A stretch of 17,287 nt of DNA. Source: a virus. Lineage: Duplodnaviria > Heunggongvirae > Uroviricota > Caudoviricetes. The notes below the pieces were generated by a model. The model had not been told where the DNA came from. It searched no databases and was given only the letters and a program-made list of their open reading frames with translations. Both the position numbers and the translations under genes were made by a program. Shown one piece after another: positions 1 to 17,287 of the stretch; positions within the stretch are counted from its first letter, which is position 1; each line of letters opens with the position of its first letter. The stretch is from positions 1-17,287 of IMG/VR virus record IMGVR_UViG_2713896795_000005, one strand, 5' to 3'.

Positions 1-31
1 AAAACTAGTATTAAGACTATCACTTATTTAA

Positions 32-3676
<3,645 letters not shown>

Positions 3677-3748: not shown

Positions 3749-3919
3749 ATGGCTATGGATATTATGTCAGGTGCAAACCTAAAAGTAGAAGTAGGTACAA
3801 GTGCTGGTAACACACTAGCGACCGACTTTAAAGAAGTTCCCGAAGTTGCTAGCTTTACTACTTCTGGCTTTGAATCAGTTGTTATAGACGTAAAAACTTT
3901 CAACTCTTCATATAACCGT
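3749..3919 (+). CDS. Exon 1 of intron-containing small tail protein (putative major tail/tube protein by position)
   Basis: ATG 3749 preceded by AAGGAA (3734-3739). Unspliced reading stops at TAA 3923-3925 after 58 codons. Homologous to the fibre N-terminal domain (EVASFTTSGFESVV vs [13 protein letters not shown]). Confidence 0.6.
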
Positions 3920-4189
3920 GGATAAAATAGCGGCCTATAGTAGCAATACTATTTGAATAACTCCTTTAATTGCTGGAAACTCTTATTATTAAGTTAAAGA
4001 CAATCAGCAGCGAAACCATATTATATGGAACGTTCAACGACTAGCCGAAAGGCGTAGGGATTAAGTAATCTCGAAATGGGGAGAATCCGAAATATCGGAT
4101 TGTGATATAGTCTAATCTGTATAGAAATATGCAGCAGTCATAAAGACCGATGACGATGTAGTATTAACGCCACTACATGAATAAAAATG
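3920..4189 (+). ncRNA. Group I self-splicing intron, ~270 nt, no homing endonuclease ORF
   Basis: Conserved core elements: P AATTGCTGGAAAC (3968-3980), Q AATCAGCAGCG (4002-4012), R GTTCAACGACTAG (4032-4044), S GATATAGTCTAA (4104-4115). P4 pairing TGCTG/CAGCA and P7 pairing GACTA/TAGTC. 5' exon ends in U3919 with a candidate guide GCGG (3930-3933) pairing CCGU. Intron ends ...AAAAATG (G4189), like the T4 td intron 3' end. In-frame stops sit at both intron ends (TAA 3923-3925, TGA 4178-4180). Confidence 0.75.
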
Positions 4190-4477
4190 AAATTGCTCGG
4201 CACAAAATCGATCCCTGATATTGAACTAAGTGTTAACTATCTTGCGGATAATACAGTACACCAACAATTAGAGACTCTCGCAGACGAGCAAAAACGCTGT
4301 CAGATTCGTCTAAGCTACTATACTGATGCAACCCACACTACTGGTTTTTATGTAGTTTATACTTGCTTCGTTAGTTCCACTACTATTGATGGCGACAAAG
4401 ATGAAGTAGTAACTAAAGCATTCAACCTAGCTGTAGACGGTGCAGCCGTTGAATCAGGTACACTACCTTCTATCTAA
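4190..4477 (+). CDS. Exon 2 of intron-containing small tail protein
   Basis: Same frame as exon 1; removing 3920-4189 (270 nt) joins ...SSYNR to KLLGTKSIPDIELSVNYL..., collinear and gap-free against the fibre N-domain (...SSGYSEKLLAEQDIGNIEVVVNYL...). Shared GDKD-x-VVTK motif near the C-terminus. Stop TAA 4475-4477. Confidence 0.6.
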   Translation, partial: KLLGTKSIPDIELSVNYLADNTVHQQLETLADEQKRCQIRLSYYTDATHTTGFYVVYTCFVSSTTIDGDKDEVVTKAFNLAVDGAAVESGTLPSI

Positions 4478-13536: not shown

Positions 13537-13863
13537 ATGGCAGGATGGGAAAATATAATTGCCGTCATAATAGCTTTGGGTGCTTTTATTTGGAATCTCA
13601 TTAGAGATAAATTCGCAGACTTTAAAACACTTGAATCACGACTGGCTAAAATAGAATCAGATTTAGCACATACTAAATCGGACGTAGAAAGGTTAGAAAA
13701 GGGTCAGGATGATTTAGAATCAGCACTCAATGATTTACGTTCTCAGATTCATTCAATGGATCTAAAAATAGAACGAGTGATAGCAATATTAGAAAAAAAT
13801 AAGGGGCTTATTGCCCCTTTTCTTTTTGCTATTTGTTTACTAATTGATAAATCATATCTTTAA
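13537..13863 (+). CDS. Membrane-anchored coiled-coil protein (lysis-associated candidate: i-spanin-like or holin-like)
   Basis: N-terminal TM segment (IIAVIIALGAFIWNLI) followed by a predicted heptad-rich helical region. The 3' end reads through the terminator hairpin and overlaps the convergent lysozyme gene by 35 nt. Paralogue of the frame-split ORF at 15968-16218. Confidence 0.55.
   Translation: MAGWENIIAVIIALGAFIWNLIRDKFADFKTLESRLAKIESDLAHTKSDVERLEKGQDDLESALNDLRSQIHSMDLKIERVIAILEKNKGLIAPFLFAICLLIDKSYL
13801..13828. terminator. Bidirectional rho-independent terminator shared by convergent genes
   Basis: AAGGGGC (13801-13807) / GCCCCTT (13813-13819) hairpin; + strand followed by TTTCTTTTT, - strand followed by ATTTTTTTC. 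Confidence 0.6.
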
Positions 13864-14281
13864 CGCGGTTAGGTGTCTGACGATACCATAGACTATCTTT
13901 AGCCTGAATAATCGCCCCCTTCCAATCCTTGCGGTGTAGTGCTGCAATCATCTTCTTGAACTTCTTAACACCACCTAAACCCAACTGAAAGGCCATAATA
14001 ACTAAGAAGTCTTGCCAGTCCTTCGGTAAGTCCAAGCCCAATGTTTTAACATCCTTGATAGTACGGTCAATATCCCATGCCAGTAGTAAATCTGCATCAA
14101 TGGCACTGATACCGTTTTTGTACTTTTCGATTTCATTAGGTAGGATCTTATGTCCGTAACCGATTGTAGCGTACCCTTCGGTATCCACATATGGGTAGAA
14201 CTTGTCTTGTCGATAGTATCCGCGTACTCGTTGGTATTCTTTAGTACCTTCATATAGTTTTAATCTTTCTTTAATGTCCAT
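13829..14281 (-). CDS. T4-type lysozyme (glycoside hydrolase family 24 endolysin)
   Basis: Close match to the T4 lysozyme pattern: E11 in LKLYEG, DTEGYATIGYGH (T4 DTEGYYTIGIGH), SLWYRQTPNRVKDM (T4 SRWYNQTPNRAKRV). No signal peptide. Confidence 0.85.
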   Translation of the reverse strand: MDIKERLKLYEGTKEYQRVRGYYRQDKFYPYVDTEGYATIGYGHKILPNEIEKYKNGISAIDADLLLAWDIDRTIKDVKTLGLDLPKDWQDFLVIMAFQLGLGGVKKFKKMIAALHRKDWKGAIIQAKDSLWYRQTPNRVKDMIYQLVNK

Positions 14282-14319
14282 AAATAACCTTATAATAATA
14301 GTAATAATTAAGGATATTT

Positions 14320-14757
14320 ATGGTGTGGGATATGTTTGATCCAGAAGTCTGGAATATAAAAGATGTAGATTCTGGCAACTATGCCGCATTTGTTTACTTA
14401 ATTCAGTTTGATAATGGTAGTTGGTATATTGGTATGAAACAGATATATCAGGGCGTTAAAGATATTAAAAAATTAAAGTCCAGTACCAAACAATCGAACT
14501 GGAAGGACTACACATCAAGTAGTAGAACAGTAAATGCCTTAATTGACGCAGGGGAGGACTATAAAAAGTATGTTCTATGGTGTTTCCCTACTGCGAACCA
14601 AGCAAGCATAGTAGAAACGGCCTTAATCGCTACGAGTGGACTACTACCGCATAATCTGAATAAAGCCATACTTGCAAAGGCAAGACTACCAGCGAGCGAT
14701 ACAGACGCGTTAAAGCTATTTAAAATTGTAAAAGGACTAATAGGATCTCTAACATGA
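14320..14757 (+). CDS. Hypothetical protein, possible GIY-YIG nuclease-like fold
   Basis: FVYLIQFDNGSWYIG gives a V-Y-L ... (9 aa) ... Y-I-G spacing like GIY-YIG motifs; later IVETALI and PHNLN could supply the Glu and Asn. No clear catalytic Arg. AAGGA SD; stop overlaps the next start. Confidence 0.4.
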   Translation: MVWDMFDPEVWNIKDVDSGNYAAFVYLIQFDNGSWYIGMKQIYQGVKDIKKLKSSTKQSNWKDYTSSSRTVNALIDAGEDYKKYVLWCFPTANQASIVETALIATSGLLPHNLNKAILAKARLPASDTDALKLFKIVKGLIGSLT

Positions 14758-15332
14758 AAATCAATGCAAAAATAACTGGCCTATCCAGTGCAAAGGGCTA
14801 TCTAAATCAACAGGGAAAATTATATGGTAATCAATTCCAAGATGAACTAATCAAACGTACTCGCCAACTAGCTAAGGAAATGCAAGCAGATTTAAATGAT
14901 TCAATTGATAAAGGGGGCGTAGCCTTTACAAAGAATGCTGTACTGTACTTTTATAACAAGTCCGGTACTAGCGTAAAATGTACCATCATGATTAAAGATA
15001 TTCAGGCTGGGTATCTTTATGACGTGATAGTACATCCAGATCCACTAAAGAAATTTGTACCTACATCTGCGGCACGTCTGACTAAACAGGGGAACATACC
15101 CCAGCTTAAAAGTAATGTTGAAAAGGGTAAATATCGCGTAGTAGTTGAAAACGGGAAAAAGTACCTAATCGATACAACTAAGAAAGATACGAAGACAAAA
15201 ACTAAACGTGTAATTGGTGTACGTGAAACGAAGAAGAGGAAGCTAATTTATGACTTCTATGAAGAAGCAGAAAAGGGAGTAACTACAATTGTTAGCGGCA
15301 TGAAAGGACACTTTAAACTGAAGAAGGGGTAA
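14754..15332 (+). CDS. Hypothetical protein with lysine-rich basic C-terminal region
   Basis: 192-aa ORF, translationally coupled (ATGA overlap at 14754-14757). No family recognised. Confidence 0.5.
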   Translation: MKINAKITGLSSAKGYLNQQGKLYGNQFQDELIKRTRQLAKEMQADLNDSIDKGGVAFTKNAVLYFYNKSGTSVKCTIMIKDIQAGYLYDVIVHPDPLKKFVPTSAARLTKQGNIPQLKSNVEKGKYRVVVENGKKYLIDTTKKDTKTKTKRVIGVRETKKRKLIYDFYEEAEKGVTTIVSGMKGHFKLKKG

Positions 15333-15335
15333 CAA

Positions 15336-15656
15336 ATGAATTTAGAAGAACATCACTATGGGGAGGAAGTTAACGAGATTACATTAGATGGGGTAACACC
15401 ATTTGGTAATTCATATCAGTTCGAACTTTTTCAACTAGACAATAAGAAAATAAAAAAGAAAGTTAAAACTTTTGCACCTGATATTAAAACTTATATGAAT
15501 GTAGTTTTCTCCTATAAGCAATCACAGTGGACTGATGGGGATATACTAACATGGACGTATAAAAGTATACCCTTTGAAGTAGTGCTACTCGATTCACATT
15601 TTATCAGTGTTAAGGGTAAACATTTCTATCAATATGTAATAGGAGTAAAAAAATGA
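15336..15656 (+). CDS. Hypothetical protein
   Basis: 106-aa ORF starting 4 nt after the upstream stop. No family recognised. Confidence 0.5.
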   Translation: MNLEEHHYGEEVNEITLDGVTPFGNSYQFELFQLDNKKIKKKVKTFAPDIKTYMNVVFSYKQSQWTDGDILTWTYKSIPFEVVLLDSHFISVKGKHFYQYVIGVKK

Positions 15657-15946
15657 TTAGTATCTTAGTAGAACTATTAAAATCTGGTATGGATTTTTTC
15701 ATCAGGAAAAAAATAGTGGAAAAAGAAGTTCAGAAAACTAACGCCGAAGGACAAATAGAAGTAAACAAAGAAGAAATTGAAAGAGTATCATTTCACTGGC
15801 GTAACACACTTGGATTTGTGTTAACTATGATTGTGGCTTACAACTGGTTAATAGTACCGCTGCTAGATGCGTTTGGAATTGTAGTTATTCAAGTCCCATT
15901 AGGAGAATTGCTTACTATCCTACAAATCATGATTGGCGGAGTATAA
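15653..15946 (+). CDS. Small membrane protein (two C-terminal hydrophobic helices)
   Basis: 97-aa ORF overlapping the upstream stop (ATGA). Hydrophilic N-terminal half, then two hydrophobic segments (GFVLTMIVAYNWLIVPLL, IVVIQVPLGELLTILQIMIGGV). Confidence 0.5.
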   Translation: MISILVELLKSGMDFFIRKKIVEKEVQKTNAEGQIEVNKEEIERVSFHWRNTLGFVLTMIVAYNWLIVPLLDAFGIVVIQVPLGELLTILQIMIGGV

Positions 15947-15967: not shown

Positions 15968-16218
15968 ATGGACTACATCGCGTTAGGGGGGCTATTAATG
16001 GCTTTTTTACATTTATGGCTCGTCTACTCTATAGACGAAAACAAGAGATCTTAGAAGCTGAAAGACGTATAAGTGATATTGAAAGTATGCTTCTAGTATT
16101 AGAAACTAAAATAGAAAGTAATGAAGCAGATATTGATGAATTGTATGATTTAGTACGGGATTTATCAAAAATAAAAAGTGACACTTCAAAAATTAAAGGA
16201 ATATTAAAATCTAAATGA
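15968..16218 (+). pseudogene. Frame-disrupted paralogue of the 13537-13863 coiled-coil membrane protein
   Basis: A 28-codon ORF (15968-16054, MDYIALGGLLMAFLHLWLVYSIDENKRS, AAGGA SD) carries the TM helix. The coiled-coil part is in the -1 frame (ORF 16015-16218). One extra A in the A4 run at 16038-16041 would give a single ORF collinear with the paralogue. Confidence 0.5.
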
Positions 16219-16219
16219 A

Positions 16220-16246
16220 GCCCCTTATGGGGCGTTCACTTTTATT
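16220..16246. terminator. Palindromic GC hairpin with flanking T-rich tracts
   Basis: GCCCC (16220-16224), loop TTAT, GGGGC (16229-16233), then GTTCACTTTTATT on the + strand. The - strand side is also T-rich, so it may serve the convergent - strand genes too. Confidence 0.5.
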
Positions 16247-16318
16247 AAAATTTATATATAAGTTTGCTAAAAAAAGTTATTTTTGTGTGCTATTGACTTG
16301 TTTTAATAACTAGTTATT

Positions 16319-16564
16319 TTATTCACATTTCCATATGGTATTTTGTACACCCGTACCGGCGGGTAGATGTGGGTTAACATTAGCACTATGTGTATAGGTT
16401 GCTTTTGATTTTCCATATTGCTTACATGCGGCATCTGCTGTCTTCTGTAAGCTATCTAACCCGTACCATCCGTCTGATTGGATACTGACTGTTTTACCAT
16501 CGTTGTACTGAACCATTGCACAACCAGATACAAGGATTGACATTGCAAATACTATTTTTTTCAT
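16319..16564 (-). CDS. Small lipoprotein, probably outer-membrane (candidate Cor/Llp-type exclusion lipoprotein)
   Basis: Signal peptide MKKIVFAMSILVSG-C with lipobox V-S-G-C and Ala at +2; mature part ~66 aa with two further Cys, one next to the C-terminus. AAAGGG SD upstream on the - strand. Confidence 0.65.
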   Translation of the reverse strand: MKKIVFAMSILVSGCAMVQYNDGKTVSIQSDGWYGLDSLQKTADAACKQYGKSKATYTHSANVNPHLPAGTGVQNTIWKCE

Positions 16565-16606
16565 CCTAAGACCCTTTAATTTATTATTTTATATTCTGTA
16601 GTGTTT

Positions 16607-17287
16607 TTATTTTCTTTCATAACAAAATACATCTTCAAATCTTATCTCTAAATTATTATAAATTTCTATAGCATTTTTATAATTGATGTTTATTTGTTCG
16701 TTGTTTTTTTGCCAACAAAAGTATCTATTAAAATAGGTCATGTCAATTGCAGACTTAATGAAATCTTGAATGCTCTCTCTGGTATTATCTGCGGCTGTGA
16801 TGTAATTAATATACTCTATTTCTGCCTTGCAGTGCATATCCCACGAACCTAACGTTTTTATCTCCACTAATAATTGTGCGACCTCAATATTTAAAGATCT
16901 GCTAAGATCTAATAATTCATTGGCTATATTTTTCATTTTTGTATTTTCAGTTGGAGATAATTCTTTGCACTGTGAGTATTCATCGCAGAAGTTATCATAT
17001 CCACTTTTAAGTGAATGAAGTTTTATAAATGATTGAGTCATGTTCATTAGTATTTTTTCTGCATGTTCAAAACCTTTATTTTTGACTCTATCTTTCAACC
17101 AGTTACGAACACTTAAGGCTGCATATATTGCAGACCCAGCAACTACAGTATCCATAATGGCAGAAACAGTACTGCTTGTAAATTCATGTAAAAATAATAC
17201 ATCTAAGTAGATTGCTGTCAATACACCAAGACTGAAGTACATAATATGTGAAAATTCTATTTTATCAACTAAGACTCTAATATTCAT
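16607..17287 (-). CDS. Membrane protein with two N-terminal TM helices and a ~160-aa soluble domain, unknown function
   Basis: 226-aa ORF whose ATG sits on the last three bases of the window, so the true start may lie beyond it. Hydrophobic segments MYFSLGVLTAIYLDVLFL and AIMDTVVAGSAIYAALSV. Roughly 20-30% GC by spot counts of two 60-nt lines, versus ~30-50% in two tail-gene lines. Confidence 0.55.
   Translation of the reverse strand: MNIRVLVDKIEFSHIMYFSLGVLTAIYLDVLFLHEFTSSTVSAIMDTVVAGSAIYAALSVRNWLKDRVKNKGFEHAEKILMNMTQSFIKLHSLKSGYDNFCDEYSQCKELSPTENTKMKNIANELLDLSRSLNIEVAQLLVEIKTLGSWDMHCKAEIEYINYITAADNTRESIQDFIKSAIDMTYFNRYFCWQKNNEQININYKNAIEIYNNLEIRFEDVFCYERK

What the first reader, a model, noticed from the sequence alone, without database searches (positions are those of the whole stretch)
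14320..15946. Translationally coupled four-gene block of unknown function opening with a GIY-YIG-like ORF
Four ORFs are chained by overlapping or near-abutting stop and start codons (ATGA at 14754 and 15653), diverging from the lysozyme gene across a 38-bp gap. The first has a GIY-YIG-like double motif with plausible downstream Glu and Asn but no obvious catalytic Arg, so it could be a small stand-alone nuclease or an inactivated derivative. The others are a basic protein, a 106-aa protein and a small membrane protein. The block could be a host-takeover, anti-defence or defence cassette.
Basis: partly seen in the sequence, partly recalled or inferred. Interest (0 to 1): 0.5.

Follow-up and report, generated by a model that had tools for sequence, protein, structure and literature searches.

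The report
Prophage late genes: nuclease, tail-completion, holin
The four tightly packed genes are real, but they are the ordinary tail end of a prophage's late gene region (a nuclease descended from a homing endonuclease, a tail-completion protein with a small partner, and a holin), not a defence cassette.

Summary
Four + strand ORFs (145, 192, 106 and 97 aa) are chained by ATGA overlaps at 14754 and 15653 and a 3-nt gap at 15333-15335. They diverge from a T4-type lysozyme gene across 38 bp.

The block is conserved in more than 200 loci of one family of roughly 30-36 kb Enterobacterales siphovirus prophages with GTA-like tail tips. It is a composite, not one cassette.
- **ORF1** is a SegE-type GIY-YIG nuclease domain (PF19835, 1.6e-17). 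Its Tyr/Tyr/Glu/Asn core is invariant in 112 sequences and dN/dS is 0.08. It lacks the zinc-finger DNA-binding module that long alleles carry in the same slot.
- **ORF3** is its constant small beta-barrel partner, role unresolved.
- **ORF4** is a holin of the RcGTA type (PF11351), a borderline match.

In an alternative gene order, ORF2-ORF3 follow the tail-tip gene while ORF1-ORF4 stay with the endolysin.

The defence or anti-defence reading is not supported. What ORF1 cuts remains unknown.

The parts
13537..13863 (+). Membrane-tethered coiled-coil protein ('TMcc', 108 aa). It resembles the DUF2730 / Mu gp25 'releasin' family and always sits beside the endolysin.
   Evidence: PF10805 DUF2730 at E 4.7e-5, 23.9 bits against a cut-off of 24.9. 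Weak Rz-like spanin PHROG hits. N-terminal hydrophobic segment at residues 1-24. Syntenic with the lysozyme gene in nearly all loci. The DUF2730 family is described in PMC9239132.
13801..13819 (.). Bidirectional intrinsic-terminator-like hairpin between the convergent TMcc and lysozyme genes. It ends the upstream tail operon.
   Evidence: Found on both strands (7 pairs, 5 G-C, followed by a T-run). An equivalent terminator follows TMcc in loci where the lysozyme gene is co-directional.
13829..14281 (-). T4-type (GH24) endolysin of 150 aa with no signal or SAR segment, so it would need a holin.
   Evidence: PF00959 at E 4.8e-9. PHROG lysozyme and endolysin families. No hydrophobic segment. E11 and the DTEGYxTIGYGH motif are visible in the translation.
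14278..14323 (.). Conserved inverted repeat (arms 14278-14292 and 14309-14323). It covers both divergent translation-initiation regions and is a probable promoter or operator element of the lysis unit.
   Evidence: 15-nt arms, 93% complementary (pair I6). TAAATA...TATTTA is invariant in 24 of 24 diverse loci. Five further pairs show compensatory changes, 91% of cells are paired, and 0 of 500 shuffles reach the observed covariation score. In loci with a co-directional lysozyme gene a single (G)ATAAATAC(C) copy lies between the terminator and the lysozyme RBS.
14320..14757 (+). ORF1: stand-alone SegE-type GIY-YIG nuclease domain (145 aa). It is the short allele of a homing-endonuclease-type gene and has no DNA-binding module.
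   Evidence: PF19835 at E 1.6e-17. phrog_7363 homing endonuclease. PADLOC HEase. 32-37% identical to the N-terminal domains of T4-like seg-type endonucleases. Invariant F24, Y26, Y36, G38, K40, W61, Y64, S67, S68, E99, I103, N114 and K120 in 112 sequences. dN/dS 0.077. 300-305-aa alleles with an N-terminal DUF723 zinc finger occupy the same slot.
14754..15332 (+). ORF2: basic 192-aa protein with the siphovirus tail completion protein fold (lambda gpZ / HK97 gp10 / SPP1 gp16.1 / 80alpha gp51 class).
15336..15656 (+). ORF3: 106-aa small beta-barrel protein, the constant partner of ORF2. Probably a virion or assembly protein; role unresolved.
15653..15946 (+). ORF4: holin-like membrane protein of 97 aa. 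It has an N-terminal amphipathic helix, a charged linker and a hydrophobic stretch long enough for two spans. It belongs to the RcGTA holin type.
   Evidence: PF11351 GTA_holin_3TM at E 1.7e-4, 22.6 bits against a cut-off of 24.8. 6 of 12 family members hit PF11351, best E 1.6e-5. phrog_3427 holin at E 1e-3. Hydrophobic stretch 52-97. Directly follows ORF1 with a 4-nt overlap in L012.
16015..16218 (+). 67-aa coiled-coil ORF. Possibly a fifth gene of the same transcription unit in this window. It is not part of the conserved core.
   Evidence: No terminator is predicted between ORF4 and this ORF. It shares a 27-nt repeat with TMcc (family D1) and gives a weak BLAST hit to TMcc of L005. It is absent at the prophage end in L001.
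16220..16233 (.). Terminator-like hairpin that would close the ORF1 to cc67 unit.
   Evidence: GCCCCTTATGGGGC on both strands.

Best explanation
The block is the distal end of the late region of a temperate siphovirus prophage. The family comprises roughly 30-36 kb Enterobacterales prophages with RcGTA-like tail tips, and no cultured representative was found. The block consists of two modules nested in each other.

**Lysis module**
- It consists of a DUF2730-like membrane protein, a T4-type endolysin (inverted in this lineage), ORF1 and ORF4.
- ORF4 is the holin that lets the cytoplasmic endolysin reach the wall.
- ORF1 is a GIY-YIG nuclease of homing-endonuclease ancestry that has become fixed between the endolysin gene and the genes downstream.
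- The window carries the common short allele, which is the nuclease domain only. Rare long alleles in the same slot add zinc-finger (DUF723) DNA-binding repeats.
- I infer that the short form is still an active DNA nuclease made late in infection.
- It most plausibly acts selfishly or competitively on related genomes, as seg genes do, or has been domesticated for a late DNA-processing task.

**Virion-completion module**
- ORF2 is a gpZ/gp10/gp51-type tail completion protein. [quoted passage not shown]
- ORF3 is its obligatory small beta-barrel partner.

**Transcription**
- The unit appears to be transcribed separately from the tail operon.
- A bidirectional terminator precedes it.
- A conserved TAAATA/TATTTA palindrome spans the 38-bp divergent region.

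**Shown versus inferred**
- Shown: gene structure, synteny, family and fold assignments, conservation.
- Inferred: enzymatic activity, virion location, holin function, promoter function.
For: **Context**
- The upstream genes are a siphovirus tail module: S74 fibre, tape measure protein, distal tail protein, hub, DUF6950 and tail tip.
- The same layout occurs in the E. coli WGI31CT prophage, where the block is the last set of genes before the attachment site in yegD.

**Two modules**
- Order A is TMcc-lys-O1-O2-O3-O4. Order B is tail tip-O2-O3-TMcc-lys(-)-O1-O4.
- In L012, ORF2 starts on the last base of the tail-tip stop codon and ORF1 overlaps ORF4 by 4 nt.

**ORF1**
- PF19835 at 1.6e-17.
- Invariant catalytic core in 112 sequences and dN/dS 0.077.
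- Present in 77 of 79 ORF4-seeded loci and 78 of 80 ORF2-seeded loci.
- Long DUF723 + GIY-YIG alleles sit in the identical slot.
- DUF723 is described as a zinc-finger DNA-binding domain of phage GIY-YIG-type homing endonucleases, and nucleases are reported to sit at boundaries of genetic exchange (PMC10448857).
- Against L264, the body of ORF1 is 44% identical while the flanking genes are 72-84% identical.

**ORF2**
- In L001 the head-proximal cluster contains W-like and FII-like proteins, one unassigned 130-aa protein and the tube protein. None of them is recognisably Z-like.

**ORF4**
- PF11351 hits in half of the family and a C-terminal hydrophobic stretch long enough for two spans.
- The endolysin has no export signal.

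**Transcription unit**
- Terminators and the palindrome.
Against: - The ORF3 fold is generic, so its role is open.
- ORF4 scores just below Pfam's cut-off.
- ORF1 has no DNA-binding domain and no invariant Arg, so its activity and substrate are unproven.
- One natural genome (L199) lacks ORF1 while the rest of the cluster is intact, so ORF1 is not structurally required.
- Near-universal presence and purifying selection are unlike a classical sporadic homing endonuclease.
- No spanin was identified.
- The sigma-70 scan found fewer promoter-like sites than shuffled sequence gives.
Confidence: 0.6

Rival explanations
1. ORF1 is a domesticated late nuclease that is functionally part of the lysis or maturation programme. 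It might resolve or trim branched DNA before packaging, or destroy host DNA around the time of lysis. It would not be a selfish element.
For: - It is fixed in about 98% of loci, always next to the endolysin, and in order B it is translationally linked to the holin gene.
- It shows strong purifying selection and an invariant active site.
- In the distantly related phage record DCP80 an Endonuclease VII gene, a resolvase family, sits immediately before the ORF2-like and ORF3-like genes and near the endolysin.
Against: - There is only one analogous locus.
- Endo VII-like and GIY-YIG genes are also common free-standing homing endonucleases.
- Long alleles with homing-endonuclease-type zinc fingers occupy the same slot.
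- A natural ORF1-less genome exists.
- The short form has no DNA-binding module.
Confidence: 0.2
2. ORF1 is a decaying remnant of a homing endonuclease with no present function, and the block is otherwise plain late genes.
For: - It lacks the DNA-binding domain that long alleles carry.
- It has no canonical Arg.
- One genome has lost it cleanly.
Against: - dN/dS is 0.077.
- Thirteen positions, including Y26, Y36, E99 and N114, are invariant across 112 sequences that are only about 40-55% identical overall.
- No frameshifted copies were seen among more than 150 loci.
Confidence: 0.08
3. One reading: the four genes form a host-takeover, anti-defence or defence cassette.
For: - The block sits at the attachment-site-proximal end of the prophage, where cargo genes often lie.
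- It contains a nuclease domain, and two of its proteins have no family assignment.
Against: - There are no defence-system profile hits beyond the generic HEase match.
- ORF2 has a tail-completion fold and ORF4 is a holin type.
- The genes are core and syntenic, not variable.
- ORF2-ORF3 relocate to the tail operon in order B.
- Composition is the same as in the rest of the prophage.
- Co-expression with a holin is incompatible with expression in the lysogen (inference).
Confidence: 0.05
4. ORF2 and ORF3 are not virion proteins. They would be a DNA-binding pair that supplies target recognition to ORF1.
For: - ORF2 is very basic (pI 9.9) and is translationally coupled to ORF1 in order A.
- ORF1 has no DNA-binding domain of its own.
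Against: - In order B, ORF2-ORF3 are separated from ORF1 and fused to the tail operon.
- The ORF2 fold matches a tail completion protein.
- L199 keeps ORF2-ORF3 without ORF1.
Confidence: 0.05

Closest known systems
T4 SegE and other free-standing seg-type GIY-YIG homing endonucleases (Pfam PF19835)
   Same: ORF1 matches the SegE_GIY-YIG profile well above the cut-off. It shares the FVY / YIG-x-K / Y-x-S-S / E / N pattern and is 32-37% identical to the N-terminal domains of T4-like homing endonucleases. Like T4 SegE, it has no Arg at the I-TevI R27 position.
   Different: - It is only 145 aa, with no C-terminal DNA-binding domain.
- It is almost universally present at one fixed position in its phage family, not sporadic.
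- It lies in a lysis operon of a temperate siphovirus.
Zinc-finger (CapR / DUF723 / DUF4397) plus T5orf172 / GIY-YIG homing endonucleases of ICP1-like and other phages (PMC10448857)
   Same: The long alleles in the ORF1 slot (P0136, P0137) have DUF723-type zinc-ribbon repeats joined to the nuclease domain. The slot lies at a boundary of genetic exchange: lysozyme inversion, relocation of ORF2-ORF3, and ORF1 allele replacement.
   Different: The window's allele has lost, or never had, the zinc fingers. The nuclease domain belongs to the SegE-type Pfam family, not to T5orf172.
Tail completion protein: lambda gpZ, HK97 gp10, SPP1 gp16.1, 80alpha gp51 (PDB 9mu2 chain P)
   Different: - There is no detectable sequence similarity.
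- The gene lies after the tail-tip or lysis genes, not between the head-closure and terminator genes.
- Its partner ORF3 is a beta barrel, not a recognisable terminator.
RcGTA holin rcc00556 family (Pfam PF11351, GTA_holin_3TM)
   Same: ORF4 and half of its family match the profile over positions 45-116. It is encoded with a lysozyme-type endolysin in an element with RcGTA-like tail genes.
   Different: It scores just under the Pfam cut-off. Only two clear hydrophobic spans plus an amphipathic N-terminus are seen, not three transmembrane segments. It is separated from the endolysin gene by one to three genes.
Mu gp25 'releasin' (DUF2730, PMC9239132)
   Same: The neighbouring TMcc protein has an N-terminal transmembrane segment, an acidic coiled-coil cytoplasmic part, a borderline DUF2730 match, and lies next to the endolysin gene.
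   Different: The endolysin here has no SAR segment and the phage is not Mu-like. The paper found DUF2730 only in transposable phages among isolated phages.
T4 endonuclease II (DenA), a stand-alone 136-aa GIY-YIG enzyme that attacks host DNA (from general knowledge, not tested here)
   Same: A small single-domain GIY-YIG protein of a phage with no separate DNA-binding domain.
   Different: It is an early gene of a virulent phage whose own DNA is modified. No sequence comparison was made here.
PilZ domain (fold only)
   Different: The c-di-GMP-binding RxxxR and [DN]xSxxG motifs are absent from the family alignment. Phage hub and stopper barrels score nearly as well.

Membership tests
GIY-YIG nuclease superfamily, SegE-type domain (PF19835) | Profile match above the curated cut-off | tested here: met
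   64.3 bits against a cut-off of 25, E 1.6e-17, residues 13-113.
GIY-YIG nuclease superfamily, SegE-type domain (PF19835) | The two Tyr motifs (GIY and YIG) | tested here: met
   F24-V25-Y26 and Y36-I37-G38. Y26, Y36 and G38 are invariant in 112 sequences.
GIY-YIG nuclease superfamily, SegE-type domain (PF19835) | Metal-binding Glu and structural Asn (I-TevI E75 and N90, 15 residues apart) | tested here: met
   E99 and N114 are 15 residues apart and both invariant in 112 of 112 sequences. The equivalence rests on spacing and on the family alignment, not on a structure.
GIY-YIG nuclease superfamily, SegE-type domain (PF19835) | Catalytic Arg in the first helix (I-TevI R27) | tested here: not met
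   The window has G45 at the aligned column, which in the family is G/R/S/K. T4 SegE also has no Arg there. K40 is invariant and position 47 is always K or R, so either may substitute (inference).
GIY-YIG nuclease superfamily, SegE-type domain (PF19835) | Nuclease activity | not testable with these tools
   Needs biochemistry.
Free-standing homing endonuclease (mobile seg-type gene) | Nuclease domain joined to a DNA-binding domain | tested here: not met
   145 aa with no second domain. Long alleles in the same slot do have DUF723 zinc fingers.
Free-standing homing endonuclease (mobile seg-type gene) | Sporadic presence or absence among close relatives | tested here: not met
   Present in 77 of 79 and 78 of 80 loci seeded with other genes. 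One clean absence, L199.
Free-standing homing endonuclease (mobile seg-type gene) | Cleaves the endonuclease-less allele near the insertion site | not testable with these tools
   Needs a cleavage assay on the L199-type lys|ORF2 junction.
Tail completion protein (gpZ / HK97 gp10 / gp16.1 / gp51) | Characteristic fold: long N-terminal helix, beta hairpin, short helix, C-terminal helix | tested here: met
Tail completion protein (gpZ / HK97 gp10 / gp16.1 / gp51) | Sequence-family membership (Pfam HK97-gp10_like or Minor_tail_Z) | tested here: not met
   No Pfam, PHROG or NCBIfam hit. hhalign against gpZ and gp10 gave probability below 1%. Profile search against PDB sequences found nothing.
Tail completion protein (gpZ / HK97 gp10 / gp16.1 / gp51) | Gene lies between the head-closure and tail-terminator genes | tested here: not met
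   It lies after the lysis genes (order A) or directly after the tail-tip gene (order B). In L001 the head-proximal cluster has no recognisable Z-like gene.
Tail completion protein (gpZ / HK97 gp10 / gp16.1 / gp51) | Located inside the tail or neck of the virion | not testable with these tools
   Needs virion proteomics or cryo-EM.
Holin, PF11351 GTA_holin_3TM | Profile match above the cut-off | tested here: inconclusive
   22.6 bits against a cut-off of 24.8 for the window protein. 6 of 12 homologues hit at E <= 0.01, best 1.6e-5.
Holin, PF11351 GTA_holin_3TM | Small membrane protein with transmembrane segments, encoded with an endolysin that has no signal | tested here: met
   A hydrophobic stretch at 52-97, long enough for two spans. 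The endolysin has no hydrophobic segment. The two genes are linked in all loci.
Holin, PF11351 GTA_holin_3TM | Forms lethal membrane lesions that release the endolysin | not testable with these tools
   Needs expression or complementation tests.
PilZ c-di-GMP receptor (considered for ORF3) | RxxxR and [DN]xSxxG binding motifs | tested here: not met
   Absent from the 32-sequence alignment A4. Only the barrel fold is similar.
Known anti-phage defence systems (PADLOC) | Profile hits to system components | tested here: not met
   Only the generic 'HEase' hit for ORF1 (7e-8). ORF2 and ORF4 gave nothing, and ORF3 gave one insignificant hit at E 0.039.

The most novel reading that the evidence does not exclude
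The short GIY-YIG protein is neither a selfish leftover nor an ordinary homing endonuclease. It would be a domesticated nuclease that has become a working component of a holin-endolysin operon. Examples would be a late enzyme that clears branched or host DNA in step with lysis, or a competition weapon against co-infecting relatives that works without its own DNA-binding domain. It would be co-regulated with the endolysin through the conserved TAAATA/TATTTA palindrome. That would add a nuclease to the repertoire of lysis-cassette accessory functions.
Probability: 0.18. Interest if true: 0.55.

Novelty: new variant of a known kind. Interest (0 to 1): 0.3.

Why it matters
- It turns four 'hypothetical' genes of a widespread but uncultured family of Enterobacterales prophages into testable assignments: nuclease, tail completion protein, partner protein and holin.
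- It shows that a tail-completion gene can sit far from the neck genes. This matters for automated phage annotation.
- It offers a natural series for studying what happens to a homing endonuclease after fixation. Long zinc-finger alleles, short nuclease-only alleles and one deletion all occupy the same slot.

If the short nuclease proved to have a role in lysis or DNA maturation, that would be new. Otherwise the block is ordinary phage late-gene content.

Tried and rejected
- **DNA similarity searches.** Megablast and blastn of the region against 50,697 phage records and against plasmids found nothing. Only two syntenic E. coli prophages, 82-83% identical, turned up among 5,426 complete genomes.
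- **Family libraries for ORF2 and ORF3.** NCBIfam and PADLOC gave nothing useful.
- **hhalign comparisons.** ORF2 profile against lambda gpZ and HK97 gp10, ORF3 profile against lambda gpU and the HK97 terminator, and ORF3 against the two neck proteins of L001 all gave probability below 1%.
- **PDB sequence searches.** ORF1 alone and the profiles of ORF1 and ORF2 found nothing.
- **ORF1 against reference GIY-YIG proteins.** hhalign of the ORF1 family against I-TevI aligned only the GIY...YIG stretch. Against T4 SegE it gave only 34% probability. Residue equivalences therefore rest on MAFFT alignments and motif spacing.
- **Foldseek of ORF2 against viral models.** Hits were weak (E >= 0.05), although several were named neck or tail proteins.
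- **Embedded o-spanin in TMcc.** None found.
- **RNAalifold on the intergenic palindrome.** No consensus structure was returned. The pairing was then counted directly.
- **More DCP80-like loci.** A search meant to test whether other nucleases replace ORF1 returned only the same lineage.
- **Rfam.** No RNA family lies in the block.
- **Defence-cassette idea.** Considered and rejected for the reasons given under the rival explanations.
- **ORF3 as a PilZ c-di-GMP receptor.** Considered and rejected because the binding motifs are absent.
- **ORF1 as a terminase-associated nuclease like HK97 gp74.** Considered and rejected. In L001 ORF1 lies about 20 kb from the terminase genes, at the opposite end of the integrated prophage.
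Full report
**1. The observation**

The sequence shows ATGA overlaps at 14754 and 15653 and a 3-nt spacer between ORF2 and ORF3. Each start has a purine-rich Shine-Dalgarno-like run 5-8 nt upstream. The lysozyme gene (PF00959) runs on the - strand from 14281 to 13829, so the divergent gap is 38 bp.

The ORFs are genes, not chance. Every one has homologues in syntenic loci, and dN/dS against the closest complete relative is 0.055-0.16. G+C content is 34-42% throughout the window, so the block is not a compositional island.

**2. Where the window comes from**

The upstream genes are a siphovirus tail module:
- an S74-type fibre (32-3676);
- tail assembly chaperones;
- a 732-aa tape measure protein;
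- a distal tail protein;
- a hub N-terminal domain;
- DUF6950;
- a 1070-aa tail tip protein.

Bases 1-76 are an IS2 end.

- **Source record.** The exact ORF2 protein is encoded on one public contig, GCA_001077955.1 LFKC01000010.1. There the prophage ends shortly after the window, followed by an MFS transporter gene, a lipid A acyltransferase gene, a rhodanese gene and yceI-like genes.
- **Cultured relatives.** No phage or plasmid record matches at the DNA level.
- **Closest complete relative.** Two of 5,426 complete E. coli genomes carry a syntenic prophage 82-83% identical. In E. coli WGI31CT this prophage is about 32 kb and is inserted in yegD. It has a serine-recombinase-type gene at one end, and the four-gene block forms the very last genes at the other end.

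**3. The block is conserved, and it is a composite**

I seeded searches with ORF2, ORF1 and ORF4 and retrieved 13 genomic loci and about 240 viral-contig loci, many from the same contigs. Profile HMMs of the six proteins give two main gene orders.
- **Order A, as in the window:** (p215) - TMcc - lysozyme - ORF1 - ORF2 - ORF3 - ORF4. The lysozyme gene is on either strand.
- **Order B, 33 + 3 loci:** tail tip - ORF2 - ORF3 - TMcc - lysozyme(-) - ORF1 - ORF4.

In the Leclercia locus L012, ORF2 starts on the last base of the tail-tip stop codon, and ORF1 overlaps the ORF4-like gene by 4 nt. So ORF2 and ORF3 travel together and belong with the tail genes. ORF1 and ORF4 stay with the endolysin and the TMcc protein. 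The 'four-gene block' is one module nested inside another.

**4. ORF1**

*Family assignment.* ORF1 matches PF19835 (SegE_GIY-YIG) at E 1.6e-17, phrog_7363 'homing endonuclease', and PADLOC's generic HEase. In cultured phages its relatives are the N-terminal domains of T4-like seg-type endonucleases, 32-37% identical. One example is a 359-aa protein of Cronobacter phage Cronuts beside nrdD.

*Relatives across all proteins.* An exhaustive HMMER search found 71 clusters. Most are stand-alone proteins of 115-160 aa.

*Conservation.* In 112 unique sequences from this prophage family, F24, Y26, Y36, G38, K40, W61, Y64, S67, S68, E99, I103, N114 and K120 are invariant, and position 47 is always K or R. 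E99 and N114 are 15 residues apart, as E75 and N90 are in I-TevI. I confirmed the I-TevI sequence against PDB 1MK0.

*The missing Arg.* The column that aligns with the catalytic R27 of I-TevI is G in the window and G/R/S/K in the family. T4 SegE also has no Arg there. From general knowledge, SegE is an active endonuclease. The missing Arg is therefore a trait of this subfamily, not evidence of inactivation. With dN/dS 0.077, I consider an active enzyme likely. This is inference.

*Long alleles in the same slot.* Two representative clusters, P0136 (305 aa) and P0137 (300 aa), carry an N-terminal 165-residue region of CxxC zinc-ribbon repeats that matches DUF723, followed by an ORF1-like domain. 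Both are encoded in exactly the ORF1 slot of the same prophage family, in the order lysozyme(-) - long allele - ORF2 - ORF3 - ORF4. One of them lies in a prophage at the same chromosomal site as the window's.

Barth et al. (PMC10448857) describe DUF723 as a zinc-finger DNA-binding domain of phage GIY-YIG-type (T5orf172) homing endonucleases. They report that such nuclease genes sit near essential genes and at boundaries of genetic exchange. That fits here:
- the lysozyme gene is inverted in some lineages;
- ORF2-ORF3 relocate between the two gene orders;
- against L264 the body of ORF1 is 44% identical, while the flanking genes are 72-84% identical and the DNA alignment breaks exactly at the ORF1 borders.

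*Distribution.* ORF1 is unlike a classical sporadic homing endonuclease. It is present in 77 of 79 ORF4-seeded loci and 78 of 80 ORF2-seeded loci. One genome (L199) lacks it cleanly, with 191 nt between the lysozyme gene and ORF2.

*Reading.* ORF1 is a nuclease of homing-endonuclease descent that has been fixed in this slot. The window has the common short, nuclease-only allele, which selection still maintains. What it cuts is unknown.

**5. ORF2**

*Sequence searches.* ORF2 has 96 homologues, all 'hypothetical' and all from Enterobacterales. No Pfam, PHROG or NCBIfam family matches.

*Structure.* The AlphaFold2 model from 43 sequences has mean pLDDT 73. Its elements in order are:
- a long helix (10-50);
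- a beta hairpin (63-80);
- a short helix (82-92);
- a beta-rich insert (99-159);
- a C-terminal helix (168-182).

*What the hit is.* That chain is gp51 of phage 80alpha, the tail completion protein. The authors equate it with lambda gpZ, HK97 gp10 and SPP1 gp16.1. They describe it as a long bent N-terminal helix, a loop with a hairpin and a short helix, and a C-terminal helix, and they note that gpZ has an extra beta domain at the apex. ORF2 fits that description and is 192 aa, as gpZ is.

[quoted passage not shown] A basic protein (pI 9.9) suits that role. In the WGI31CT prophage the head-proximal cluster has a W-like connector protein, an FII-like head-closure protein (PF05354), one unassigned 130-aa protein and the tube protein. 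None of them is recognisably Z-like.

*Against.* No sequence-level similarity to gpZ or gp10 was found. Foldseek against viral models gave only weak hits, although several were named neck or tail proteins. I put this assignment at about 0.7.

**6. ORF3**

The first search found only five close homologues. A profile built from locus-derived sequences raised this to 34.

ORF3 always follows ORF2, in both gene orders. It does so even in the distant phage record DCP80, which has ORF2-like (E 2e-25) and ORF3-like (E 2.6e-5) genes beside an endolysin gene. I therefore regard it as a partner of the tail completion protein, probably in the virion or in assembly. This is inference.

**7. ORF4 and the lysis genes**

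- **ORF4.** It matches PF11351 (GTA_holin_3TM) just below the cut-off. Six of twelve family members hit the profile, best E 1.6e-5. It also matches a PHROG holin family weakly. It has a hydrophobic stretch at 52-97, long enough for two spans, after a charged linker and an amphipathic N-terminus. The RcGTA lysozyme and holin pair rcc00555/rcc00556 is the reference for this family.
- **Endolysin.** It has no hydrophobic N-terminal segment, so it would need a holin.
- **TMcc.** This upstream protein (13537-13863) has an N-terminal transmembrane segment and a coiled coil, and it is a borderline match to DUF2730. That is the family of the Mu gp25 'releasin', which is always encoded near an endolysin.
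- **Spanin.** I found none, and no embedded lipoprotein frame in TMcc.

**8. Transcription signals**

A bidirectional terminator-like hairpin (13801-13819) separates TMcc from the convergent lysozyme gene. Another (16220-16233) follows the 67-aa ORF after ORF4.

The 38-bp divergent region is a palindrome. Arms 14278-14292 and 14309-14323 are 93% complementary and include both Shine-Dalgarno sequences and both start codons. Across 24 diverse loci:
- TAAATA...TATTTA is invariant;
- five further pairs change on both sides;
- 91% of cells pair;
- 0 of 500 shuffles reach the observed covariation score;
- slid registers fall to 32-51% paired.

Part of this is forced, because both arms are ribosome-binding sites. 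In loci where the lysozyme gene is co-directional, however, one copy of (G)ATAAATAC(C) lies between the terminator after TMcc and the lysozyme ribosome-binding site. I therefore read TAAATA as a promoter or operator element of a separate lysozyme-to-ORF4 unit, duplicated in mirror image when the lysozyme gene was inverted. This is inference. The sigma-70 scan gives no support either way.

**9. Comparison with known systems, and novelty**

- Every component resembles something known: seg-type or zinc-finger GIY-YIG homing endonucleases, the gpZ/gp10/gp51 tail completion protein, the RcGTA-type holin, and the Mu releasin family.
- What differs is the arrangement:
  - a nuclease-only GIY-YIG allele is fixed in a lysis operon;
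  - a tail-completion pair lies at the far end of the late region, or behind the tail-tip gene, not in the neck cluster;
  - a palindromic control region sits between the endolysin gene and the nuclease gene.
- A full-text literature search found no paper describing a GIY-YIG gene as part of a lysis cassette.

I class the finding as a new variant of a known kind. It is of modest interest.

**10. Verdict**

The proposed defence or anti-defence function is not supported. The most likely account is an ordinary late-gene segment: nuclease of homing-endonuclease descent, tail completion protein and partner, and holin. The substrate and role of the short nuclease remain the open question.

Noticed in passing
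window 3749-4471 (Rfam match 3910-4134, + strand): The major tail (tube) protein gene is split by an ORF-less group I intron. Rfam RF00028 scores 81.9 bits (cut-off 50), E 7.5e-20, over the full-length model. tblastn with the uninterrupted 152-aa tube protein of the WGI31CT prophage places residues 1-59 at 3749-3919 and residues 60-152 at 4190-4468, in the same frame. This also explains the short megablast hits to Bacillus SPO1-like phages. No match to this segment was found in 5,426 complete E. coli genomes. A group I intron in a structural gene of an enterobacterial prophage may deserve its own follow-up, especially alongside the homing-endonuclease-type gene 10 kb away.
   Followed up: partly
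window 13537-13863: The membrane-tethered coiled-coil protein next to the endolysin gene is a borderline match to DUF2730, the Mu gp25 'releasin' family. PMC9239132 reports that family only from transposable phages among isolated phages, and mostly with SAR endolysins. Here it accompanies a cytoplasmic T4-type lysozyme in a phage that is not Mu-like.
   Followed up: partly
window 14278-14323 and the equivalent intergenic regions of L020-L260: A conserved palindrome (TAAATA...TATTTA invariant, with compensatory changes in five further pairs) covers the ribosome-binding sites and start codons of both divergent genes. A single copy follows the terminator in loci where the lysozyme gene is co-directional.
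   Followed up: yes
window 1-76: The window begins with an IS2 end, 97-100% identical to IS2 copies in phage records. The long fibre ORF (32-3676) starts right at it. The head genes present in the WGI31CT relative are not in the window, so this prophage may be interrupted or truncated by IS2.
   Followed up: no
window 16015-17287: Three extra genes lie between ORF4 and the prophage end: a 67-aa coiled-coil ORF partly similar to TMcc, an 81-aa lipoprotein on the - strand (lipobox LVSGC; phrog_7757, E 2.5e-45), and a 226-aa protein with one N-terminal hydrophobic segment and no family match. This is probably variable cargo and possibly superinfection exclusion. All three are absent from the WGI31CT prophage.
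   Followed up: no
L179 (Escherichia phage DCP80, PQ671644.1, 17671-29949): A record classified as a T4-like Gaprivervirus contains a large unannotated 1252-aa ORF, Endonuclease VII, ORF2-like, ORF3-like, a signal-peptide protein, a homologous endolysin and a small-terminase-like gene. This is siphovirus-like late-gene content. It is the only cultured-phage record with an ORF2 relative, and a different nuclease family sits next to ORF2.
   Followed up: partly
window 15653-15946 compared with L001 and L008: The holin allele is mosaic. ORF4 is only 48% identical to that of the otherwise closest relative, WGI31CT, where neighbouring genes are 81-87% identical. It is 76% identical to the ORF4 of a Buttiauxella prophage.
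   Followed up: no
L013 (5107-5940) and L141: Some family members are remnants. In L013 an IS3-family transposase gene replaces everything upstream of ORF2. L141 keeps ORF2-ORF4 but lacks the lysozyme gene and ORF1.
   Followed up: partly
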